From NCBI GenBank assembly GCA_047602745.1, contig JBLKOJ010000003.1, forward strand, positions 4,912 through 68,911: a stretch of DNA of 64,000 nucleotides, written 5' to 3'. The translations under genes and the position numbers were made by a program. The notes beneath the pieces were generated by a model that was not told where the DNA came from, made no database searches, and saw nothing but the letters and a program-made list of their open reading frames with translations. Positions within the stretch are counted from its first letter, which is position 1. Every line of letters starts with the position of its first letter. Shown here piece after piece: positions 15,656 through 34,192 of the stretch. The stretch comes from Candidatus Woesearchaeota archaeon (GTDB lineage Archaea > Nanobdellota > Nanobdellia > Woesearchaeales > UBA583).

Positions 15656-16405
15656 TTAATTACTTCTACTATTATGAGCTTGTAGTACTTCATCAAGTGT
15701 AGTAATGTCTTCAATACGTTTATCATGAGTTCTAAGAGCAATAACTTTTGGAAATCTTAATGCATATTTACTCTGTGTTGTTTGGGATTCTTGTAAATCT
15801 TGGTAAGACACTTGTATAATTATTTCAGGTTTAAAATATATAACTCCTGTTTTTGAATCTTCTTTTTGAATTAGAGGTGTAAGAAGAGATGTTAAATGTT
15901 GAATTGATAATTCTCCTTCTTCTTTTTCTGTAACTCCTGAACCTACCTTGCCAATTGTTTTTAATTCCCCTAAATTATTTTGAACTGCTACATAAAAACT
16001 TGAAAAGTAACCTCCTCTTTTACCAACACCTCTTTGAGCTGCTATAATTACAACATCAATATCCTCAGATGTAGGCTTCATTTTATACATATATCCTACT
16101 TTTTTTCCTGCTTTGTAAGGTTTATCTAAAATTTTAATCATTATTCCTTCCTGTTTATCATTAACAGCTTGCTTGTAAAATTCTTCAAGTTCTTCTTTTG
16201 AATTTGCAATTGTACATTTTGCAGGAGATATTTGAAATATTTCATGCATTGCTTTAAGTCCAAGTTCATCAAAAATAGTTAATTTATAAGAGCAAGGTAG
16301 TTCAATGACTTTAAGATGTTTATTTTCAAATATAATTTTTGAAGAATTTTCATCATTAGAGTTATTTTGAGTAAATTTAAGTAAATCCATTTTTATTATA
16401 TTCAT
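15656..16405 (-). CDS. ATP-dependent DNA ligase, C-terminal fragment (nucleotidyltransferase motifs IV-V plus OB-fold with motif VI)
   Basis: Motif IV EGIMIK, motif V GYMYKMKP, OB-fold region, and motif VI LRFPKVIALRTHDK. It lacks the motif I lysine and the DNA-binding domain. It begins 26 nt downstream of rnz on the same strand. Confidence 0.75.
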   Translation of the reverse strand: MNIIKMDLLKFTQNNSNDENSSKIIFENKHLKVIELPCSYKLTIFDELGLKAMHEIFQISPAKCTIANSKEELEEFYKQAVNDKQEGIMIKILDKPYKAGKKVGYMYKMKPTSEDIDVVIIAAQRGVGKRGGYFSSFYVAVQNNLGELKTIGKVGSGVTEKEEGELSIQHLTSLLTPLIQKEDSKTGVIYFKPEIIIQVSYQDLQESQTTQSKYALRFPKVIALRTHDKRIEDITTLDEVLQAHNSRSN

Positions 16406-16431: not shown

Positions 16432-17349
16432 TTATTTAATTATAACACTCATCAAATCATGCGTCATATGAGTTTTTTCAAAATATTCTTTTGCTTCTTC
16501 AAAAATAACTGTTGGATCTTTATAACGCTGCGAAAAATGAGTAATATACAATTCTCTCACATTACAATCTCTTGCTATTTCAGCAGTTTCTCTGCCAGAC
16601 ATATGGTCATACTCCTCTGCTTTATGTGCATGTTCTTTGTATAAAAATGTAGCTTCCATAATTAAGTAATTACTATTTTGAGCAATAAGTTGAACTTCTT
16701 TGCAAGGTCTTGTATCAAATATGAATGTTATTTTAAGTCCTTCTTTTTTGTATGTTATCATTTCGGGAGTAATTGTTTGTCCATTATGTTCAATATCTAA
16801 ACCCATTTTTGCTCGTGCCAGAAGAGGAGAGGTTGTAAGTCCAAATTGTTTAGATTTTTTAGGGTCAATATTTAGTACATCCTTTTCTTTTAAAGTATAT
16901 GCAAGACAAGGAACAGAGTGGTTTAAATTAACACATGAAATTGTAAATTGTGAAGTTGAAATAATTTCTTGTAATTCTTCTTTTTTTGGAGTGTGTTCAA
17001 ATACTTGTAAATCAAGTTTAGTATCAAAGATCATAGATTGTTTCATATGAGATATATAATTTAAAGTTCCTTTAGGACCATGAATTTCAATAACTCCAAC
17101 ATTTTGAGTATTTCCTAAACTCATTAATAATCCTGGAAGACCCAATACATGATCTCCATGCCAGTGAGAGATAAAAATTCTTTTAACATGGCTTAAAGGT
17201 AATTTTTTCTTTTTAATTTGTAATTGAGTATGTTCTCCACAATCAAAAAGCATTAATTCTCCATTTAATTCAAGACATACACTGAGATGATTTCTCTGAG
17301 GAGTTGGCATCATACATCCTGTACCTAGAAAATGGAGTTTCTTTGTCAT
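16432..17349 (-). CDS. rnz: Ribonuclease Z (tRNA 3' endonuclease)
   Basis: Metallo-beta-lactamase HxHxDH motif (SHWHGDHVLGLPGLL). N-terminal LHFLGTG and C-terminal ITHFSQRY are typical of short-form RNase Z. Confidence 0.85.
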   Translation of the reverse strand: MTKKLHFLGTGCMMPTPQRNHLSVCLELNGELMLFDCGEHTQLQIKKKKLPLSHVKRIFISHWHGDHVLGLPGLLMSLGNTQNVGVIEIHGPKGTLNYISHMKQSMIFDTKLDLQVFEHTPKKEELQEIISTSQFTISCVNLNHSVPCLAYTLKEKDVLNIDPKKSKQFGLTTSPLLARAKMGLDIEHNGQTITPEMITYKKEGLKITFIFDTRPCKEVQLIAQNSNYLIMEATFLYKEHAHKAEEYDHMSGRETAEIARDCNVRELYITHFSQRYKDPTVIFEEAKEYFEKTHMTHDLMSVIIK

Positions 17350-18240: not shown

Positions 18241-20220
18241 CTATATGAGTTCTTTTTTGTATTCATCTATTAAATCCCTATATTTAATTGCTCTTTCAAA
18301 ATCTAACTCCTCACTCGCTTTTTGCATAAGTCCCTCAAGTTCAATAATTTTTTGCTCAATATCATAATTTGTCATTGCTTTAACTTCACTCTTCACACTT
18401 GGAGTTTTTCCTTTTTTATCTTCTTTCTTCTCCTCCACATTTTTAATAATCTGTTGTGGAGTAATTCCATGTTCTTGATTATATTTTTCTTGTTGTTTTC
18501 TTCTATATTTAGTTTTCTCAATAGCTGCTGTCAAAGATTTATTCATTCTATCTGCAAATAATGTCACTTTCCCATCCACATTTCTTGCAGCTCTTCCAAT
18601 GGTTTGAATAAGAGATTTCTCATTTCTTAAAAATCCTTCTTTATCAGCATCAAGCACACACACTAAACTCACCTCAGGAACATCAAGTCCTTCTCTAAGT
18701 AAATTAATTCCTACTAACACATCAAAATCTCCTGCTCGAAGTTGTCTAATGAGTTCAATTCTCTCTAAACTATCAATATCACTGTGTAAATATCTCACTT
18801 TAATTCGCTCTTTAGCCATATATTCTGCTAAATCTTGGGCCATTCGTTTTGTGAGTGTTGTGACAAATACTCTTCCACCTAAGTGCCGAGAATCTTTGAA
18901 TTTCTCAACTTCTGCTTTTATTTGAGAAATACATTCCCTCACTTGCCCCTCACAGGGTTTTACAGTAATTACGGGGTCTAAAAGCCCTGTTGGTCTAATA
19001 ATTTGTTCAATGAGTTGAGTAGATTCATTGAGTTCATATTCACTAGGAGTTGCACTTACAAATAAACAATTTTTAAAATATTTCTCAAATTCATGAAACT
19101 TTAATGGTCTATTATCAAATGCACATGGTAGTCTAAATCCATATTCCACTAAATTTTTTTTACGTGCATAATCTCCATTATACATCCCATGAGATTGAGG
19201 TATTGTCTGATGACTCTCATCAATAATGAGTAAAAAATCATCTCCAAAATAATCCAATAATACATGAGGAGGAGTTCCCACTTTTCTTTGTTCAAAATGA
19301 CGAGAATAATTTTCAATTCCTGAACAATAACCAACTTCTTCAATCATCTCCAAATCATACTTTGTTCTTCTCTTAAGTCTTTCAGCTTCAAGCATAGAGA
19401 GTTGAGGAAGCCACTCGTCAAGCTCAGCTCTAATATTATCAAGAGCTGATTTAATTTTCTCCTCTGTTACTGCAAATTGTTTAGCAGGATATAAAGAAAT
19501 TTCATCAACATCTTGAATCACTTCTAAACTCACACCGTCTAAAATCGCAATTCTCTCAATTTCATCTCCAAACATCTCAATTCTCACAATCGTATTATCA
19601 TACGCTGGAAACACCTCAATAGTCTCTCCCCTTACCCTAAATTGTCCACTCTCAAGAGTTCCCCCCGTTACTCGTTCATAGAGCATTTCTACAATTTTTA
19701 AAAGTAGTTGTCCTCTGTATATTTCATCTTTAACTTTAATTTTTTGTGATAATTCTTTAAAGTCCTCGGGATTTCCAGCACCATAAATACACGATATACT
19801 AGCTATCACAATAACATCATCTCGTGATAGTAATGAAGCCATTGTTTTGAGTCTCATTTTTTCAATTTGTTCATTTACTGTTGCTTCTTTTTCAATATAG
19901 GTATCACTTGTTGGAATATAGCTCTCTGGTTGGTAGTAGTCATAGTATGAAATAAAATATTCTACTCTATTTTCAGGAAACCATTTTACAAATTCTTGAT
20001 ATAATTGAGCTGCAAGTGTCTTATTATGTGCAAGTATGAGTGTTTTTTTTTGTAATTTTTCAATCACATTGGCCATAATAAAACTTTTTCCTGAACCCGT
20101 AATTCCAAGTAATGTTTGTTTGCAATTATTAGGATTTTTTTTAAATTCCTCAGTTATTTTAGAAATTGATTCAAGTTGAGGAGGGGTTGGTCTGTAGGTG
20201 GAATGTAGTTTAAATTTCAT
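18241..20220 (-). CDS. uvrB: Excinuclease ABC subunit B (UvrB)
   Basis: Walker A GITGSGKSF, helicase motifs (IIDESH, TPS, VGINLLREGLD, QTIGRAARN), and the C-terminal UVR domain (LDFERAIKYRD). Confidence 0.95.
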   Translation of the reverse strand: MKFKLHSTYRPTPPQLESISKITEEFKKNPNNCKQTLLGITGSGKSFIMANVIEKLQKKTLILAHNKTLAAQLYQEFVKWFPENRVEYFISYYDYYQPESYIPTSDTYIEKEATVNEQIEKMRLKTMASLLSRDDVIVIASISCIYGAGNPEDFKELSQKIKVKDEIYRGQLLLKIVEMLYERVTGGTLESGQFRVRGETIEVFPAYDNTIVRIEMFGDEIERIAILDGVSLEVIQDVDEISLYPAKQFAVTEEKIKSALDNIRAELDEWLPQLSMLEAERLKRRTKYDLEMIEEVGYCSGIENYSRHFEQRKVGTPPHVLLDYFGDDFLLIIDESHQTIPQSHGMYNGDYARKKNLVEYGFRLPCAFDNRPLKFHEFEKYFKNCLFVSATPSEYELNESTQLIEQIIRPTGLLDPVITVKPCEGQVRECISQIKAEVEKFKDSRHLGGRVFVTTLTKRMAQDLAEYMAKERIKVRYLHSDIDSLERIELIRQLRAGDFDVLVGINLLREGLDVPEVSLVCVLDADKEGFLRNEKSLIQTIGRAARNVDGKVTLFADRMNKSLTAAIEKTKYRRKQQEKYNQEHGITPQQIIKNVEEKKEDKKGKTPSVKSEVKAMTNYDIEQKIIELEGLMQKASEELDFERAIKYRDLIDEYKKELI

Positions 20221-20287
20221 TTGTTTATTTTTTATCTAATTATACATTGAAATATAACTTTATAAAAATTATGTTAAAGAGAATTAG

Positions 20288-21939
20288 GTTAAAAAGTCCG
20301 TGATAAAATAATTTTTGTTGTATTTTTAATAGTAAAAACTACTATTAAATTGGAAAAATATGTTAATTTTATCCCAAAAATTAACACTCAAAATGAATAG
20401 TCAAACAACTTTATTAAACTTTAGTAAAACTTCTTTAGTGAAAACACTAAATCTAAAACTTATTTTGAGTAAAAACAATGTTTTGTGCACACAACCTATT
20501 TGTTGTCCTAGATGCAACAATTTGTGTGTTTATAATGGATTTTCTCACAAAGGTAATTATAACCCTTTGGCAAAAAAAATGAAATTTTTTTCAAAAAAGA
20601 TCAGCAATATTGCCCAATTTGCAATAAAACATATTAAGTTAAGTTTCCAGAATTTGAAGAACTTAATCAATTAATTGTTGATAAAGTAAAAAATAATATT
20701 AAATCTCTTTTAGAGTTTGGAAACTCTGAAAGTGATATTAAACTTCATATTGAAAGAACTGAAAACATACCTATTTCAATTTCATACATTAAATTAGTTA
20801 GAAAAGAATTTTTCAAAGAAATTGAGACTTCTTTTCCAGAGCTTGATAAACTTGAAGATAAAGACCTTCAAAGATTTTAGGGTTATGATGAACATTACGT
20901 TAAAGTTAATGGTAAAATGTATTTGAGAATTGTTTTACTTAATTTTGATACAAATGAAGTAATTTATCAAGAACTTGTCAAAAAATTGACAAGTGATAAA
21001 CTTGAACAAATCCTGCGAGATTTATTTAAAGAAAACAAACCAAAAGATTTTGTTTTTGATATGAGAACTATGTATGTTAAAGTTTTCAAAAATGTCTTTG
21101 GAAAAGATATTAAACTCCAATATTGCACATTTCATTTAAATAATTCTATAATGGACAAATTCAAAGAAACAAATAGATTTGTTAGTGAAGATTTGTGGAC
21201 TTTAGAAGAAATCTACAAATGTATTCAATTTTCAACATTTTTTATGATAGAACTATTGAACTTTAACATATTACTAAATTACAAAAAAAAACTTACTTTT
21301 GTAAGTTCATTTTTAACTACTAAAACCCTTGAAAGTCTTGAAAAGACTTTAATTGAAGAGTTTAGAAAAAAATGTGACGATTTTAAATTGGTGAGAACTC
21401 GTGAAAAACGAACTCTCAAACAAAGAACTAAAGAAGATGCTAAATCTAAATTAGATGAAATTTTACAATTGTGTAAAATTCCAAAAAAAGTTGTAAGACA
21501 ACTAAGAAAAGTTGCTAAAAACTTTTCTTGTTTTACTGGCGGAATTGAAGAAGGAATTCTAACTAATAATAGTTTAGAAGGTTTCTTTGGTTCAACATTA
21601 AAAAAGTTTCAAAAGAAAATTTTCAATGTTTTAGAACATTTTAGTTCTTTTCTCAAACTGAAAAAATTGAGAAAAAAGGATTTTCTTTATTTAAAGAAAT
21701 TCCATCAAACAAACATTTGTTTGCTCAAATGTTAATTTTTGCTTTTCAGCAATAAAATTATTTGAAAAATTACTTCTTTGAAGACTTTACTATCTTCAAT
21801 TTTTAAGTTTTTTATAAAAAATCAAAAAATTTAGAAAATAGGCGTTTTCAATTTTCTAAATATTCAAGCAAAAATATTGAATTTAGACCTTTGAAATGCC
21901 TAAGATATTTGAAAATGGCATTTACACGGACTTTTTAAC
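20288..21939 (+). mobile_element. Insertion sequence (about 1.65 kb) with 15-bp perfect terminal inverted repeats and a disrupted DDE transposase
   Basis: GTTAAAAAGTCCGTG at 20288-20302 is the exact reverse complement of 21925-21939. The internal coding region carries a zinc-ribbon, an HTH-like part and a DDE-like core. An 11-bp subterminal hairpin lies at 21829-21861. I see no target-site duplication. Confidence 0.65.
20360..21735 (+). pseudogene. DDE transposase (IS6-like core motif DEHYVKVNGK), inactivated by a frameshift and in-frame stops
   Basis: The frame-2 ORF (CCPRCNN...) shifts at the A8/T7 homopolymers near 20573-20592 into frame 1 (..YCPICNKTY). Frame 1 has an in-frame TAA near 20635 and an in-frame TAG at 20878-20880, immediately before GYDEHYVKVNGKMYLRIV... 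Downstream candidates are VFD and NSLEGFFG. Confidence 0.6.
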
Positions 21940-22192
21940 TCGACCCGGAACTTGAAATTTTTTGTGAAATCATCAGCTTCGCTAAGATGCAAGAAAAAAT
22001 ACAATGAGTGTCTCGCATTCTCAGACTAGTTCTAATTGTGTATTAATACATTCTTCAGGAATTTGATATTTAAATGTATTCTGATTACATAAAAAATATT
22101 TTTCTAAAATAACTCTAAAAAATTAGATCTTTTTCATAAGTAACTTTTCTAAACAACAAATCTTTTTAAAATAGAAAAATATCTTATTATTA

Positions 22193-22414
22193 ATGGCTAA
22201 ACGAAAAAATATGCTTCCATATACTCCAATTGGAGAATTTATGCATGAAAAATCACAACTTAGAATTGGTCAAGATGCTAAAATTGAAGCAGAAGCAGTT
22301 CTAGATGAATTATGTGAAAAGATTATATCACAAGCAGTATTAATTTGTGAGCATTCAAAAAGAAGTACTCTTAATGGAGATGATATTAAACTTGCATATA
22401 AACAACTTAAATAA
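22193..22414 (+). CDS. Archaeal histone (HMf/histone-fold family)
   Basis: 73 aa. LP.TPI...M......RIGQDAK...A.VL.E....I...A...C.HSKR.TL.G.DIKLA fits the archaeal histone fold pattern. Confidence 0.85.
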   Translation: MAKRKNMLPYTPIGEFMHEKSQLRIGQDAKIEAEAVLDELCEKIISQAVLICEHSKRSTLNGDDIKLAYKQLK

Positions 22415-22457
22415 AATATAAAAATGAGAAAAAATAATAAAAATATTTTTAGCATCC

Positions 22458-22477
22458 CAAATCACGGAGGTGATTTG
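22458..22477 (+). terminator. Perfect 8-bp stem / 4-nt loop hairpin between the two histone genes (possible terminator or processing structure)
   Basis: CAAATCAC-GGAG-GTGATTTG, read directly from the sequence. It lies 44 nt after the first histone stop codon. Confidence 0.3.
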
Positions 22478-22563
22478 TAAGATGATTCGAAAAAACGTAA
22501 CAACAATTTCAAAAAAATTCTTGAAACATTTTTAAATTTAAATAAATACAAAAATACGAGAAA

Positions 22564-22785
22564 ATGATCAGAAAAAATGTAAAAGGAAGTCCATTTCCAA
22601 ATTTGGCTTTAAACAATATTATGAAAAAGTATGGTGCACATAGAGTTAGTGAAGAAGCAAGAATTGAACTGAGAAAAATTCTTGAATTAAGACTTGAAGA
22701 TATAACACAAAAAGCAGCTCAAATTGCAAAGCACTCGAAGAGAAAAACGATTAATGGAGGAGATGTGAGAATTGCAAATAGATAA
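22564..22785 (+). CDS. Archaeal histone (HMf/histone-fold family), second tandem copy
   Basis: 73 aa. FP.LALNNIMKKYGAHRVSEEARIELRKILE...DITQKAAQIAKHSKRKTINGGDVRIA fits the histone fold. Confidence 0.85.
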   Translation: MIRKNVKGSPFPNLALNNIMKKYGAHRVSEEARIELRKILELRLEDITQKAAQIAKHSKRKTINGGDVRIANR

Positions 22786-22800
22786 ACTGAGAATATAATA

Positions 22801-23010
22801 TTATAATTCCAACTCCTCTTCTTCAAAAGAGAATATGTCATCTACTTTTGATTCTAACTCTTTTGCTATTTTAAAAGCAAGCTTAAGAGAAGGATTATAC
22901 TTTCCTGCCTCAATAAATAATATAGTTTCTCTTCTCACACCAACTCTATGAGCTAGTTGTTCTTGAGTTAAATTATGTCTTGCTCTTAATTCTTTAATCC
23001 TGCTTTTCAT
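22801..23010 (-). CDS. XRE-family helix-turn-helix transcriptional regulator
   Basis: [48 protein letters not shown] is a canonical short Cro/C1-type HTH. It overlaps the upstream gene by 4 nt. Confidence 0.8.
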
Positions 23011-23557: not shown

Positions 23558-24742
23558 ATGTCATCTCCCTTCAAATCTTCTAAGCAAGAACACTTATCTC
23601 AAATCAAGAAAGACTTCTACAATCAACTCAAAGCATACAAAGAAGAGTTTAAACCCACCAAAGAACTCACAACCTACTCCACTCTTCCTCTTTTAACATC
23701 TAAAACCTATCCTCACATATCAACATTTCAAGTTACTAATACTGATGTTGAAAATACCCAATTTAATCAAAATGAATTTGTCAAAAAAGAGTATTCACAT
23801 ATTTTAAAACATAAAGCACGCTCAGTGGTTGCAACATCTCAAGCACAGCATAAAACTCAAACTAAAAAACAATTACAAGAAGATCTAACTCTTCTATACT
23901 CCTCTAAAAAAGCAGTAGAGAGTGAACATATTTTTGAAGATGAGCTTAAAATTGGAAATATATTAAGTTCTAAAACTGCAGGTTTGCTAGGGAACTCTAC
24001 TCCTCTATTAAAAATTAATACATATGACAATATTTCTATATCAAAGCATTTAGAAAAGCATCAACAAGGAGAGACTAAATCTAAAGATGCTATTATAGAA
24101 CTATATGAAAAAGGATTTAATGATACACAAATAAGAACACTTCTAAGTCTTGGAACATTTGGACTTGATAACAATAAAGTATTAGTTCCAACTAAATGGT
24201 CTATTAGTGCATGTGATAGTGTACTTGAACAATATCTCTACACAAAAATAATCAACTATCGTATTGGAGAAGAATATTTAGTATTTGAACATAATGATAA
24301 AGGAAATCATTTTATTATTTGTTTTCTCCCCAATCAATTCTGCTCAGATGTTATTGAAACATATACTAACACAGATAATATTCAAGTTGTGGAGGAGGAC
24401 TTTGTACCTTTTTCAAATAAACTCTCAACAAAAGAGCCCGAGTGTGCTGGAGGGTATTGGGCAACTAAACTTGCAATGCTTGAAAAAATGAAAACTCTAA
24501 AAAAACAATATGCATGTATTTCAATTAGAATTATTGAAAATTATGAAATCCCACTAGGTGTAATATTTGTTCGAGAGAGTGTAAGAGAAGCAGTAACTAA
24601 GAAGCCTATTTTTATAAGTACCAATAAAGAAGAATTTGAACAATTTTTAAAAAATTACAACTCTATTCATTTCAACTTTTACGAAAAATCTAAATTTGTC
24701 CAAGAAATCTCAACTCTTAAACACCTCTACGAATGGATGTAA
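23558..24742 (+). CDS. Hypothetical protein (weak, unverified resemblance to the archaeal Nre DUF650/DUF651 family)
   Basis: 394-aa ORF. The block VLVPTKWSISACDSVLEQYL and the C-terminal IPLGVIFVRESVREAV remind me of Nre-family proteins. I could not verify this, and it has no N-terminal zinc finger. Confidence 0.35.
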   Translation: MSSPFKSSKQEHLSQIKKDFYNQLKAYKEEFKPTKELTTYSTLPLLTSKTYPHISTFQVTNTDVENTQFNQNEFVKKEYSHILKHKARSVVATSQAQHKTQTKKQLQEDLTLLYSSKKAVESEHIFEDELKIGNILSSKTAGLLGNSTPLLKINTYDNISISKHLEKHQQGETKSKDAIIELYEKGFNDTQIRTLLSLGTFGLDNNKVLVPTKWSISACDSVLEQYLYTKIINYRIGEEYLVFEHNDKGNHFIICFLPNQFCSDVIETYTNTDNIQVVEEDFVPFSNKLSTKEPECAGGYWATKLAMLEKMKTLKKQYACISIRIIENYEIPLGVIFVRESVREAVTKKPIFISTNKEEFEQFLKNYNSIHFNFYEKSKFVQEISTLKHLYEWM

Positions 24743-27291: not shown

Positions 27292-30201
<2,910 letters not shown>

Positions 30202-30270: not shown

Positions 30271-30344
30271 TGGACCCGTCGGGATTTGAACCCGAGGCCC
30301 CCGCCTTGCAAGGGCGGTGCTCTACCGGACTGAGCTACAGGCCC
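30271..30344 (-). tRNA. tRNA-Ala (anticodon UGC), no encoded CCA, no intron
   Basis: The hand-folded cloverleaf is GGGCCTG/TA/GCTC-AGTCCGGTA-GAGC/A/CCGCC-CTTGCAA-GGCGG/GGGCC/TCGGG-TTCAAAT-CCCGA/CGGGTCC/A. It includes the G3:U70 alanine identity pair. Confidence 0.9.
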
Positions 30345-30521: not shown

Positions 30522-30596
30522 GATCCTGTGGTCTAGTCTGGATATGATAATAGCCTCCTAAGCTGTAGATCGCGAGTTCAAATCTCGCCAGGATCG
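30522..30596 (+). tRNA. tRNA-Arg (anticodon CCU), no encoded CCA, no intron
   Basis: Hand-folded structure: acceptor GATCCTG/CAGGATC; D-arm with G18G19; anticodon stem ATAGC/GCTGT with loop CT-CCT-AA; 5-nt variable loop; T-arm GCGAG-TTCAAAT-CTCGC; discriminator G. Confidence 0.85.
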
Positions 30597-32464: not shown

Positions 32465-34192
32465 CTACTTAAAAAAATTCTCTAATTCCTCAACTACATT
32501 TTTAGAATACCTTTTTTTATCAATAATAATTGAAGTATTAGTAAATAGTTTCCTAAGTACTCCTTGTCTTTTTTCAAGAGAACTTAAATGTAAAAATTCA
32601 CCATTTAATTCTAAAATATCAAAAATTCTCATGCCAATTATAATGTTAGATTTTAAATTATGAGATTTTGTCATTATCCTCTTTGAAAGTTCTTGAAATT
32701 TAACTTGTTTAAAATTAGATTTTTCAAACCCCACACATTCAGCATCAAATACACAAGAAGTATTTGAAAAATTTGTTTCAATAAAATAAACAATCTCTTT
32801 AAATTGAGAGGTCAAGTCCTCCAAATTTCTTGAAAATAACTTGACATCACCAAAATCATTTTGAATAATAAGTCTCAATCCATCATATTTATAATCACAA
32901 AAAAAAGGAAACTCCACTTTTGAATTAATTTCATCAAATGAATACAGTCTAGGGCCCAACATAACTTTTATGGGCTTTCCAAAAATTATTGGTGGATTAA
33001 ATAAATTAATTATATCTTCCTTTAATTTATCATATGATACTTTATAAGAAACATTATAAGAGTATAAAGAATCAAACAAGTCCTTAAAACCTTTAAATAT
33101 TTCTTTTTGAAATTCTTGAACACTCAACGCATTATTCTGACTCTCAAGATTATCATTTGAAATAATTACAATGTTTATGTAGGGAAAAAAAGTTAGAAGA
33201 TTAGAACTATGATTTTGAGAAATACTAATTTCTGATTGATTAAATCTATATAACTTATTAAAAATACTACCAATTAATTTTTCTCTATCAATTAACTCAA
33301 ATTTATACCCTAGTTTCTCACAAACACTACCTTTTTGATTTTTTACAGATTTTAAAGATTTACAATTTACATTTTTAAAATCTCTACTTATTTTAACATC
33401 ACCACTTCTAATTGCAGTTTCAAAATCCGATTTATTATAATCTAGATAATTGTAAACATGAGAACTGAAAAAATGATTGATTTTTACATATAATCTTTCA
33501 CTTTGAATAACTTTTTTGTATTCTTCTAAAATATCAATATTTATTATAAATCTCTGCAAAGAATCTTCAAAATAATGTATGGAACTTAATTTGGGAAAAA
33601 AAGCAAACACAAAAGCATCATGAATTATCCCCTCATTAGCTCCGATTTTTAACAAATCTGCCAAGTATGCAACTAGGACTTTTCTCTCTTCTAATGAATT
33701 TGTCAATGATAAAAGTTGAAGAATTTTATTTTTTCTATATAAGTTTGAATTTTTTCCCGAAATTTGAGATATTTCAATAAGAATTTGAGAAAAATCTTCA
33801 AGCATCAAAAACGATTTTTCTTGGAAAATTGATCTATTTTTAAAATTCACATCTAAATTTTCAAGAGTCTTATAAATATCCCCTGTGCTATTAAATTCTT
33901 TTTCAATTATCATCCTTGATACCATGTAATAAGAAGACAATGCTTCAAATACTGTTTTTAATGAAATTGAAAACTCTTTTTTTGAAATTTCTCTTGCAAA
34001 ATTTCCAGACATAATATCAATCATTAAAGTCACATCACTAGGGTCAAAAGACATTAAAAAATCACTCAAAATTTGGATTTTTATTAATTTTTTAGAATGT
34101 GCTTTTAAAATTAAACACAATTTAGAGAACTCTTCAAAAGTTACTAGTTCATAATTATAATTGGCATTTGAGATCTTTTTTTTTAAATTCAT
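32465..34192 (-). CDS. ATP-dependent DNA ligase, N-terminal fragment (DNA-binding domain plus adenylation motifs I, III, IIIa), ending before motif IV
   Basis: DBD-like N-terminus (FEEFSKLCLILKAHSKKLIKIQILSDFL). Motif I CDYKYDGLRLII (Lys at about residue 435), LFSRNLEDLT, motif III VFDAECV, motif IIIa RIFDILELNGE. The ORF stops after ...VVEELENFFK, with no motifs IV-VI or OB fold. Confidence 0.7.
   Translation of the reverse strand: MNLKKKISNANYNYELVTFEEFSKLCLILKAHSKKLIKIQILSDFLMSFDPSDVTLMIDIMSGNFAREISKKEFSISLKTVFEALSSYYMVSRMIIEKEFNSTGDIYKTLENLDVNFKNRSIFQEKSFLMLEDFSQILIEISQISGKNSNLYRKNKILQLLSLTNSLEERKVLVAYLADLLKIGANEGIIHDAFVFAFFPKLSSIHYFEDSLQRFIINIDILEEYKKVIQSERLYVKINHFFSSHVYNYLDYNKSDFETAIRSGDVKISRDFKNVNCKSLKSVKNQKGSVCEKLGYKFELIDREKLIGSIFNKLYRFNQSEISISQNHSSNLLTFFPYINIVIISNDNLESQNNALSVQEFQKEIFKGFKDLFDSLYSYNVSYKVSYDKLKEDIINLFNPPIIFGKPIKVMLGPRLYSFDEINSKVEFPFFCDYKYDGLRLIIQNDFGDVKLFSRNLEDLTSQFKEIVYFIETNFSNTSCVFDAECVGFEKSNFKQVKFQELSKRIMTKSHNLKSNIIIGMRIFDILELNGEFLHLSSLEKRQGVLRKLFTNTSIIIDKKRYSKNVVEELENFFK

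What the first reader, a model, noticed from the sequence alone, without database searches (positions are those of the whole stretch)
15656..16405. The ATP-dependent DNA ligase is divided between two genes 16 kb apart (C-terminal piece here)
This 249-aa gene carries only nucleotidyltransferase motifs IV (EGIMIK) and V (YMYKMKP), plus the OB fold with motif VI (LRFPKVIALRTHDK). The adenylatable lysine (motif I, KYDGLR), motifs III/IIIa and the DNA-binding domain are on a separate 575-aa gene at 32465-34192 on the same strand. That gene stops just before motif IV. Neither piece should be catalytically competent alone, yet both are intact ORFs, and this one sits 26 nt behind rnz, so it is probably co-transcribed. 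Split informational genes are known in Nanoarchaeum-like reduced archaea. I am not aware of a described two-subunit replicative DNA ligase.
Basis: partly seen in the sequence, partly recalled or inferred. Interest (0 to 1): 0.7.

Follow-up and report, generated by a model that had tools for sequence, protein, structure and literature searches.

The report
DNA ligase encoded as two genes
In this tiny AT-rich archaeon, and in well over a hundred related uncultured lineages, the enzyme that seals DNA nicks is encoded as two separate, conserved genes that split its catalytic domain, so the active site probably has to be assembled from two proteins.

Summary
Two intact minus-strand ORFs, 16 kb apart, together make one Lig1-type ATP-dependent DNA ligase.

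- **N-piece (32465-34192, 575 aa):** DNA-binding domain and motifs I, III and IIIa, including the adenylatable lysine K435.
- **C-piece (15656-16405, 249 aa):** motifs IV and V, and the OB fold with motif VI.

The break lies inside the nucleotidyltransferase domain, not at a domain boundary.

It is not an artefact or decay. The exact proteins recur on 8 and 6 independently assembled contigs. The same split occurs in about 135 C-piece and 36 N-piece protein clusters from Woesearchaeota/Nanoarchaeota-labelled DPANN archaea. Both pieces were found in all four genomes that could be checked, 16 kb to 494 kb apart. Catalytic residues are invariant, dN/dS is about 0.2, and each piece is monophyletic against full-length relatives, which points to a single old event.

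Two further features track the split:
- a conserved 57-aa head on the C-piece (MDLxxFT plus a beta-meander);
- a 58-164 aa insertion in the N-piece, a zinc ribbon in most distant members.

The most likely mechanism is a non-covalent two-subunit ligase. This is untested, and an additional intact ligase elsewhere in the genome could not be excluded. No description was found in the literature searched.

The parts
32465..34192 (-). ligN: N-terminal ligase subunit (575 aa). It holds the DNA-binding domain, a lineage-specific insertion, and the first part of the adenylation domain (motifs I, III, IIIa).
   Evidence: ORF; Pfam PF04675 and PF01068 profile positions 2-171 of 204; aligns to Pfu ligase residues 5-186 and 212-390; AF2 model pLDDT 75, pTM 0.76, top Foldseek hits are Lig1-type ligases.
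33611..34138 (-). DNA-binding domain of ligN (residues 19-194)
   Evidence: PF04675, E 2.4e-15; helical, pLDDT about 90; dN/dS 0.15 against the closest relative.
33107..33598 (-). Insertion at the junction of the DNA-binding and adenylation domains (residues 199-362, 164 aa). This is the longest version in the family. Most distant members have a CxxC-x10-CxxC zinc ribbon here; this copy has lost the cysteines.
   Evidence: 33 of 35 split N-pieces have 58-164 aa here (two have 9 and 42 aa), against 1-11 aa in 50 of 53 full-length relatives (three have 91-93 aa). The first 35 residues are modelled as a beta-hairpin plus helix at pLDDT about 88, and the middle is disordered. dN/dS about 0.5.
32873..32890 (-). 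Motif I, KYDGLR. K435 is the predicted AMP-accepting lysine.
   Evidence: D433, K435, Y436, D437, G438 and R440 are invariant in 35 N-pieces; coordinates.
32597..32749 (-). Motif III (FDAECVG, residues 482-488) through motif IIIa (RIFDILELNGE, residues 522-532)
   Evidence: D483, E485, F524 and D525 are invariant; dN/dS 0.08 for residues 396-520.
32468..32539 (-). C-terminal tail of ligN (residues about 552-575). It is the strand-helix that overlaps in homology with C-piece residues about 54-83.
   Evidence: Both pieces align to Pfu residues 370-390 and to TIGR00574 positions 320-343. The last helix is absent from several distant N-pieces.
15656..16405 (-). ligC: C-terminal ligase subunit (249 aa as ORF; probably 244 aa starting at the ATG at 16390). 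It holds a head, then motifs IV and V, then the OB fold with motif VI.
   Evidence: ORF; Pfam PF01068 profile positions 153-204 of 204 and PF04679; aligns to Pfu residues 370-550; AF2 pLDDT 76.7, top Foldseek hits are archaeal ligases.
16235..16390 (-). Head of ligC (residues 6-57). It consists of the N-terminal peptide MDLLKFT, a three-stranded beta-meander and a helix. It is proposed to be a docking element.
   Evidence: MDL start in 120 of 130 members, consensus MDLtxFT. Strands 23-27, 31-36 and 39-44 and helix 47-56 are modelled at pLDDT about 80. dN/dS 0.45. No significant homology to any ligase segment.
16073..16150 (-). Motif IV (EGIMIK, residues 86-91) and motif V (YMYKMKP, residues 105-111)
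   Evidence: E86, G87, K91, K108 and K110 are invariant in 35 diverse C-pieces.
15719..16018 (-). OB-fold domain with motif VI (LRFPKVIALRTHDK, residues 216-229)
   Evidence: PF04679, E 6.7e-13; R217, F218, P219, R225, D228 and K229 are invariant.
16432..17349 (-). RNase Z-like metallo-beta-lactamase gene directly upstream of ligC. It is a conserved neighbour and a possible operon partner.
   Evidence: Pfam Lactamase_B_2 and Lactamase_B, with a weak tRNase Z N-terminal match. It lies directly upstream of ligC in every subfamily-1 locus (L001, L003, L010, L069, L071) but not in subfamily 2.

Best explanation
The organism makes its Lig1-type ATP-dependent DNA ligase from two polypeptides that associate non-covalently.

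- ligN supplies the DNA-binding domain and the half of the nucleotidyltransferase domain that holds the AMP-accepting lysine (motif I) and the ribose and adenine contacts (motifs III and IIIa).
- ligC supplies the other half of that domain (the motif IV and V strands, which contact the nucleotide phosphates) and the OB fold with motif VI, which is needed for enzyme adenylylation.

Only the complex would have a complete ATP site, so all three ligation steps would depend on assembly.

Two clade-specific additions are the likely interface: the conserved head of ligC (MDLxxFT plus a beta-meander) and the insertion at the junction of the DNA-binding and adenylation domains in ligN (a zinc ribbon in most distant relatives).

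The split arose once in an ancestor of a large Woesearchaeota/Nanoarchaeota-labelled DPANN clade. The two genes have since drifted apart in the genome.

Shown: complementarity, conservation, co-occurrence, purifying selection, single origin. Inferred: physical association, activity, the role of the head and the insertion, and that this is the cell's replicative ligase.
For: Complementary domain coverage, with only these two ligase-like regions in the window. The TIGR00574 scores of the two pieces (123.8 and 105.1 bits) fail the 217.8-bit cut-off singly but sum to 228.9.

All catalytic residues are invariant. In 35 N-pieces: K435, D437, G438, R440, E485, F524, D525. In 35 C-pieces: E86, G87, K91, K108, K110, R217, F218, P219, R225, D228, K229.

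dN/dS against the closest relatives, at dS about 0.6-0.7, is 0.20 for ligC and 0.22 for ligN. It is 0.08 over the motif I-III core.

The same split is seen in 16 plus more than 120 C-piece clusters of about 240 aa, and in 36 N-piece clusters lacking the OB fold.

Both pieces are present in 4 of 4 genomes or contigs that could be checked:
- the window, 16 kb apart;
- ENA contig of 139 kb, 33 kb apart on the same strand;
- ENA contig of 1.09 Mb, 494 kb apart;
- GCA_022565615.1, on two contigs.

In neighbour-joining trees against 53 full-length DPANN ligases, the split N clade has 200/200 bootstrap support and the split C clade 149/200.

The exact window proteins occur on 8 and 6 independently assembled contigs with the same neighbours.

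The N-piece insertion and the C-piece head occur only in the split clade.

AF2 models of each piece are ligase-like. Confidence is low around motif I (residues 426-436) and around the motif IV/V loops, as expected if each half lacks its partner strands.

Established knowledge: motifs I and III-V line one nucleotide pocket, and motif VI of the OB fold is required for step 1 (Chlorella virus and human Lig1 work by Shuman, Ellenberger and colleagues). Split N. equitans proteins such as reverse gyrase work as non-covalent pairs.
Against: - No direct evidence that the two proteins bind each other.
- Only 64 kb of this genome is available. A separate intact ATP- or NAD-dependent ligase elsewhere could not be excluded.
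- The GTDB scan found no second ligase locus in the five species with a split C-piece. It used only two narrow peptide patterns.
- The cut lies within a compact domain, and there is no experimental precedent for reconstituting a ligase nucleotidyltransferase domain from two chains.
- The proposed interface (head plus insertion) rests only on co-distribution.
Confidence: 0.75

Rival explanations
1. The two proteins no longer work together as a ligase. Each has taken on a separate role: ligN as a DNA-binding or nucleotide-binding factor, ligC as an OB-fold nucleic-acid-binding partner of RNase Z. Another, intact ligase does the nick sealing.
For: An intact ligase elsewhere cannot be excluded from 64 kb of sequence. 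ligC sits directly behind an RNase Z-like gene throughout subfamily 1. The head and the insertion are new elements of unknown function.
Against: Every residue that only makes sense as part of one ATP/AMP site is invariant in both halves over deep divergence. The rnz adjacency is absent in the larger subfamily 2. Both halves co-occur wherever this could be checked. No second ligase locus was seen in five GTDB genomes carrying the split.
Confidence: 0.12
2. The pieces are decaying remnants of a broken ligase gene (pseudogene fragments).
For: Neither piece reaches the curated whole-protein cut-off of any NCBIfam ligase model. NCBI calls both 'hypothetical protein'.
Against: ORFs of conserved length are intact in more than 170 protein clusters down to about 35-40% identity. 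dN/dS is about 0.2, and 0.08 in the catalytic core. Catalytic residues are invariant.
Confidence: 0.02
3. The halves are joined covalently after expression, by a split intein (as in N. equitans PolB) or by RNA trans-splicing guided by complementary flanks (as for split tRNAs).
For: Both mechanisms are known in Nanoarchaeum (established knowledge).
Against: No intein/Hint family hit at E <= 0.1 in either protein. ligN ends, and ligC begins, with ligase-like or family-specific sequence about 20 aa of which overlap, so a junction would duplicate a strand-helix. The longest complementary stretch between the ligN 3' flank and the ligC 5' flank is 9 nt, no better than 87% of shuffles.
Confidence: 0.02
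4. The split is an assembly or binning artefact.
For: The window comes from a metagenome-type, AT-rich (27.5% GC) sequence.
Against: Identical proteins with identical neighbours occur on 8 and 6 contigs from seven sequencing runs. The same architecture is seen in NCBI, ENA, JGI and Logan assemblies, including contigs of 0.8-1.5 Mb. In-frame stops lie just upstream of every C-piece start.
Confidence: 0.01

Closest known systems
Archaeal/eukaryotic Lig1-type ATP-dependent DNA ligases (e.g. Pyrococcus furiosus 2CFM, Thermococcus sp. 1519 3RR5, Sulfolobus solfataricus 2HIV, human LIG1)
   Same: Same three-domain order (DNA-binding, adenylation, OB fold) and all six nucleotidyltransferase motifs. 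These are the best sequence and fold matches for both pieces.
   Different: Here there are two polypeptides, cut between motifs IIIa and IV inside the adenylation domain. There is about 20 aa of overlapping homology, an extra 57-aa head on the C-piece, and a 58-164 aa insertion (ancestrally a zinc ribbon) between the DNA-binding and adenylation domains.
Full-length ligases of neighbouring Woesearchaeota, Pacearchaeota and Aenigmarchaeota genomes (loci L011-L066)
   Same: These are the closest relatives, at 42-52% identity to the catalytic part of ligC.
   Different: They are single genes of about 560-600 aa without the head, and 50 of 53 have only 1-11 residues where the insertion sits. The split forms are a separate monophyletic group.
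Split informational genes of Nanoarchaeum equitans and other DPANN archaea (reverse gyrase, alanyl-tRNA synthetase, PolB, topoisomerase I, Dph1/2; reviewed in PMC6349945)
   Same: A core information-processing enzyme encoded as two unlinked ORFs in reduced DPANN genomes. It presumably works as a non-covalent pair.
   Different: DNA ligase is not on the published lists that were found. No intein is involved. The cut falls inside a catalytic domain. The split is old and widespread rather than confined to one very reduced genome.
Modular NHEJ systems in which LigD-like ligase, polymerase and phosphoesterase are separate proteins
   Same: Ligase-associated functions are distributed over several polypeptides.
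   Different: In those systems the ligase core (nucleotidyltransferase plus OB fold) stays in one chain. Here the core itself is divided. This comparison rests on general knowledge and was not tested here.

Membership tests
ATP-dependent DNA ligase, Lig1/dnl1 type (TIGR00574; PF04675+PF01068+PF04679) | N-terminal DNA-binding domain (PF04675) | tested here: met
   ligN residues 19-194, E 2.4e-15; aligns to Pfu residues 5-186.
ATP-dependent DNA ligase, Lig1/dnl1 type (TIGR00574; PF04675+PF01068+PF04679) | Motif I KxDGxR with the adenylatable lysine, plus motifs III and IIIa | tested here: met
   KYDGLR at residues 435-440, E485, F524 and D525, all invariant in 35 N-pieces.
ATP-dependent DNA ligase, Lig1/dnl1 type (TIGR00574; PF04675+PF01068+PF04679) | Motifs IV (EGxxxK) and V (xxKxK) | tested here: met
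   EGIMIK at residues 86-91 and YMYKMKP at 105-111 on ligC; E86, G87, K91, K108 and K110 are invariant. These motifs are on the other polypeptide from motif I.
ATP-dependent DNA ligase, Lig1/dnl1 type (TIGR00574; PF04675+PF01068+PF04679) | C-terminal OB fold (PF04679) with motif VI | tested here: met
   ligC residues 130-226, E 6.7e-13; R217, F218, P219, R225, D228 and K229 are invariant.
ATP-dependent DNA ligase, Lig1/dnl1 type (TIGR00574; PF04675+PF01068+PF04679) | All domains in one polypeptide that reaches the curated whole-protein score | tested here: not met
   The pieces score 123.8 and 105.1 bits against a cut-off of 217.8 bits. The domains are divided between two genes 16 kb apart.
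ATP-dependent DNA ligase, Lig1/dnl1 type (TIGR00574; PF04675+PF01068+PF04679) | Self-adenylylation and nick sealing | not testable with these tools
   Needs co-expression and biochemical assays.
Split two-gene enzymes of DPANN archaea that work as non-covalent pairs | Two intact ORFs whose products are complementary parts of one protein | tested here: met
   Stops lie upstream of each C-piece start in relatives.
Split two-gene enzymes of DPANN archaea that work as non-covalent pairs | Both parts kept under purifying selection and present together in the same genome | tested here: met
   dN/dS about 0.2. Both parts co-occur in 4 of 4 genomes or contigs checked.
Split two-gene enzymes of DPANN archaea that work as non-covalent pairs | No intact copy of the gene elsewhere in the genome | tested here: inconclusive
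   There is none in the window. There is no second locus in the five GTDB genomes with a split C-piece, but that scan used narrow patterns and whole genomes could not be read.
Split two-gene enzymes of DPANN archaea that work as non-covalent pairs | Physical association and reconstituted activity | not testable with these tools
Split-intein trans-spliced proteins (N. equitans PolB type) | Intein N- and C-fragments flanking the break | tested here: not met
   No Hint/intein family at E <= 0.1. The ends of the two pieces are ligase-like and overlap in homology.

The most novel reading that the evidence does not exclude
The split clade has evolved a true two-subunit DNA ligase. A dedicated interface, formed by the MDLxxFT head of ligC docking on the zinc-ribbon-derived insertion of ligN (or both halves being brought together on PCNA or nicked DNA), assembles the ATP site in trans. 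Ligase activity could then be controlled by subunit supply or assembly. That would be a mode of ligase organisation and regulation unknown in any domain of life, and it would be the sole replicative ligase of a large group of archaea.
Probability: 0.35. Interest if true: 0.75.

Novelty: new variant of a known kind. Interest (0 to 1): 0.62.

Why it matters
ATP-dependent DNA ligases are textbook single-chain enzymes. Their nucleotidyltransferase domain has, as far as the searches here show, never been reported as naturally divided.

- **Enzymology.** A widespread natural ligase with its active site built from two chains would be a ready-made system for asking how the NTase fold assembles and how motifs IV-VI act in trans.
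- **Annotation.** A large DPANN clade currently appears to carry only 'hypothetical proteins' or partial 'DNA ligase-1' calls. The split could be misread as loss of a core replication gene in completeness and metabolic surveys.
- **Genome evolution.** It adds an old, stably inherited case to the debate on whether split genes in DPANN archaea are recent products of genome reduction.
- **Applications.** Split ligases are also of interest as assembly-dependent tools.

Tried and rejected
1. **Heterodimer modelling.** Only the separate pieces were modelled.

2. **Origin of the C-piece head.**
   - tblastn alignments to some full-length ligases run colinearly from the head into the motif IIIa region. 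Foldseek aligns about 227 of 249 columns. Both suggest a degenerate duplicate of that segment.
   - The head alone gives no significant profile-profile match (E 0.5-0.6).
   - A gapless profile scan ranks the colinear offset 216th of 516.
   - With the deep alignment, the best (non-significant) match is instead the motif I hairpin.
   - The origin is left unresolved. Only the overlap of about 20 aa is solid.

3. **Adjacent N and C genes as evolutionary intermediates.** None was found in any context fetched. The JGI metagenome scan returned only full-length (65) or contig-truncated (14) ligases among its best 80, plus one short unclassified ORF, because ranking favoured full-length relatives.

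4. **Exhaustive search at 50% clustering.** It shows only about five C-piece clusters with the head. The later word-based search showed that the family is far larger at 90% clustering.

5. **RNA-level joining.** No flank complementarity beyond chance. A first tree run timed out and was redone.

6. **Bacterial-type promoter and terminator scan around ligC.** Uninformative for an archaeon.

7. **Literature.** Seven full-text searches and three papers read gave no split DNA ligase.
Full report
**Observation**

Both ORFs are present on the minus strand: ligC at 15656-16405 (249 aa) and ligN at 32465-34192 (575 aa).

- In Pfam, ligN carries DNA_ligase_A_N (residues 19-194, E 2.4e-15) and positions 2-171 of the 204-position adenylation-domain model (residues 411-574, E 3.3e-26).
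- ligC carries positions 153-204 of the same adenylation-domain model (residues 59-110, E 8.8e-9) and the OB-fold domain DNA_ligase_A_C (residues 130-226, E 6.7e-13).
- Against TIGR00574, ligN covers model positions 60-343 and ligC covers 320-523. The scores are 105.1 and 123.8 bits. Each is below the 217.8-bit cut-off, but together they exceed it.
- Against the P. furiosus ligase structure 2CFM, ligN aligns to residues 5-186 and 212-390, and ligC to 370-550.
- Six full-length ligases used as tblastn queries hit only these two places in the window.
- The cut lies inside the nucleotidyltransferase (adenylation) domain, between motifs IIIa and IV. It is not at the linker between that domain and the OB fold.
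- About 20 residues (a strand and helix before motif IV) are represented in both pieces.

**Not an artefact**

- The exact ligC protein occurs on 8 contigs and the exact ligN protein on 6. These were assembled independently from seven sequencing runs and always have the same neighbours.
- In relatives, in-frame stops lie a few codons upstream of each C-piece start.

**Distribution**

- A search with ligC found 16 clusters of 238-249 aa proteins down to 40% identity.
- A search with the most distant of these (P0016) found 213 more hits. The 120 listed are nearly all 236-256 aa. Some lie on contigs of 0.4-1.5 Mb.
- A search with ligN found 36 clusters of 344-575 aa with the DNA-binding and adenylation domains but no OB fold.
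- NCBI names for members are 'hypothetical protein' from Nanoarchaeota, Woesearchaeota or Nanoarchaeia MAGs. JGI calls some 'DNA ligase-1'.
- A scan of GTDB species representatives found five species with a stand-alone C-piece and 50 full-length ligases in neighbouring Woesearchaeota, Pacearchaeota and Aenigmarchaeota genomes.
- Both pieces were present in every genome or long contig that could be checked:

| Genome or contig | Arrangement |
|---|---|
| The window | 16,059 nt between the ORFs |
| ENA contig k141_1196427 (139 kb) | About 33 kb apart, same strand |
| ENA contig ctg52608 (1.09 Mb) | About 494 kb apart |
| GCA_022565615.1 | On two contigs |

- The two genes were never adjacent.

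**Selection and origin**

- Invariant in 35 N-pieces: D433, K435, Y436, D437, G438, R440 (motif I), R455, D483, E485 (motif III), F524, D525 (motif IIIa).
- Invariant in 35 diverse C-pieces: E86, G87, K91 (motif IV), K108, K110 (motif V), R217, F218, P219, R225, D228, K229 (motif VI).
- Nei-Gojobori dN/dS against the closest relatives, at dS 0.6-0.7:

| Region | dN/dS |
|---|---|
| ligC, whole | 0.20 |
| ligC catalytic part | 0.15 |
| ligC head | 0.45 |
| ligN, whole | 0.22 |
| ligN residues 396-520 | 0.08 |
| ligN DNA-binding domain | 0.15 |
| ligN insertion | 0.5 |

- In neighbour-joining trees with 53 full-length DPANN ligases, the split N-pieces form one clade in 200 of 200 bootstraps. The split C-pieces form one clade in 149 of 200, using only residues 84-249.
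- The split therefore most likely happened once and has been kept for a long time.

**Features that travel with the split**

1. *The C-piece head.* Every C-piece has a head of about 57 aa before the ligase-homologous part.
   - 120 of 130 members begin with MDL, and the consensus is MDLtxFT. The real start in the window is therefore probably the ATG at 16390.
   - AlphaFold2 models the head as three strands (23-27, 31-36, 39-44) and a helix (47-56) at pLDDT about 80.
   - Its origin is unresolved.
2. *The N-piece insertion.* 33 of 35 N-pieces have 58-164 residues at the junction of the DNA-binding and adenylation domains (two have 9 and 42).
   - 50 of 53 full-length relatives have only 1-11 residues there (three have 91-93).
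   - In 18 of 22 members of the distant subfamily the insertion starts with a CxxC-x10-CxxC zinc ribbon.
   - The window's subfamily has lost the cysteines and lengthened the insertion, to 164 aa here.

Because the two elements are confined to the split clade, they are the best candidates for a subunit interface. This is inference from co-distribution only.

**Mechanism proposed**

In Lig1-type enzymes the roles are as follows (established from Chlorella virus ligase and human LIG1 work; not tested here):
- the motif I lysine attacks ATP;
- motifs III and IIIa hold the ribose and adenine;
- motifs IV and V contact the phosphates and the lysine;
- motif VI of the OB fold orients the pyrophosphate leaving group for step 1;
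- the three domains then encircle the nick.

Here the first group of motifs is on ligN and the second on ligC. Neither piece can be competent alone, and the complex should be. The separate AF2 models fit this. Each is ligase-like, but confidence is low around motif I in ligN (residues 426-436) and around the motif IV/V loops in ligC. A model of the pair could not be computed.

**Genomic context**

- ligC follows an RNase Z-like metallo-beta-lactamase gene (16432-17349). The gap is 26 nt, or 41 nt from M6.
- This adjacency holds in all subfamily-1 loci, down to 62% ligC identity. It does not hold in subfamily 2, where the upstream genes differ.
- The spacer contains an A/T-rich stretch about 27 nt upstream of M6. 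That could be an archaeal TATA box for a leaderless transcript, so co-transcription is possible but not established.
- ligN has a GGGGA stretch 8 nt upstream of its ATG and is followed by aIF2-alpha, which is also conserved.
- The 16 kb between the pieces holds UvrB, an Nre homologue, a DsbA-like protein, the 23S rRNA gene, two tRNAs, YaaA and aIF2-alpha.

**Rivals**

- *Decay* is contradicted by the conservation and selection data.
- *Covalent joining* is unsupported. There is no intein signal, the ends of the two pieces overlap in homology, and the flanks show no complementarity beyond chance.
- *Misassembly* is excluded.
- *Separate new functions, with an unseen intact ligase doing the sealing,* is the one serious rival. 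It is disfavoured by the invariance of residues that only make sense around a single nucleotide site, and by co-occurrence. It cannot be excluded without whole genomes.

**Comparison with what is known**

- By sequence and fold, the pair is a Lig1-type ATP-dependent DNA ligase. It fails one defining feature of the family as curated, namely being a single chain.
- It belongs to the known phenomenon of split informational genes in DPANN archaea. The review read here lists reverse gyrase, tRNA synthetases, DNA polymerase, topoisomerase I and Dph1/2, but not DNA ligase (PMC6349945).
- The archaeal replication survey treats ligase as a single-copy core gene in its text; its split-gene figure could not be inspected (PMC3914693).
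- Seven full-text searches found no split or two-subunit DNA ligase. The library does not cover subscription journals, so a prior description cannot be ruled out.

**Verdict**

This is a real, conserved and apparently undescribed two-gene version of a core replication enzyme. It is a new variant of a known kind. Interest is moderate to high. The main open points are physical assembly and whether it is the only ligase in these cells.

Noticed in passing
window 27307-30152 (-), 30271-30344 (-), 30522-30596 (+): A complete archaeal 23S rRNA gene has tRNA-Ala(TGC) just upstream, which is the usual 16S-23S spacer tRNA. No 16S or 5S rRNA gene was found anywhere in the 64 kb, so the rRNA genes appear to be unlinked. 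A divergent tRNA-Arg(CCT) sits next to it.
   Followed up: no
window 33107-33598 (-); relatives P0037-P0058: The insertion between the DNA-binding and adenylation domains of the N-piece begins with a CxxC-x10-CxxC zinc ribbon in 18 of 22 distant members. It has lost all four cysteines in the window's subfamily, where it has grown to 164 aa. Full-length relatives lack it.
   Followed up: partly
window 16370-16405 (-): The annotated ligC ORF starts at MNIIKMDLL. 120 of 130 family members start at MDL, so the real start is probably the second ATG, at 16390.
   Followed up: yes
window 18241-20220 (-) and 23558-24742 (+): A bacterial-type UvrB and an archaeal Nre (Nre_N plus Nre_C, a PCNA-associated repair protein family) lie between the two ligase pieces. 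Two stretches, 20221-20916 and 21736-23006, have no ORF of 110 aa or more.
   Followed up: no
L080 3006-4430 (-) (GCA_020637525.1, JACJVU010000001.1): Next to the C-piece of a Woesearchaeota MAG there is a 474-aa gene with only the N-terminal and central domains of the PolD large subunit (DP2). This is far shorter than a normal DP2, so it may be another split replication gene in this clade.
   Followed up: no
L010 (CAZULG010000006.1) and L013 (CAYGPK010000007.1): Two GTDB MAGs that carry the DPANN-type split C-piece are titled 'uncultured Methanosarcinales archaeon'. This is probably a taxonomic mislabel of the records.
   Followed up: no
window 16432-17349 (-) compared with L003, L069, L010, L001: The RNase Z-like gene upstream of ligC is much more conserved than ligC between the same genome pairs: 90-93% against 78% amino-acid identity, and 72-75% against 62-66%.
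   Followed up: no
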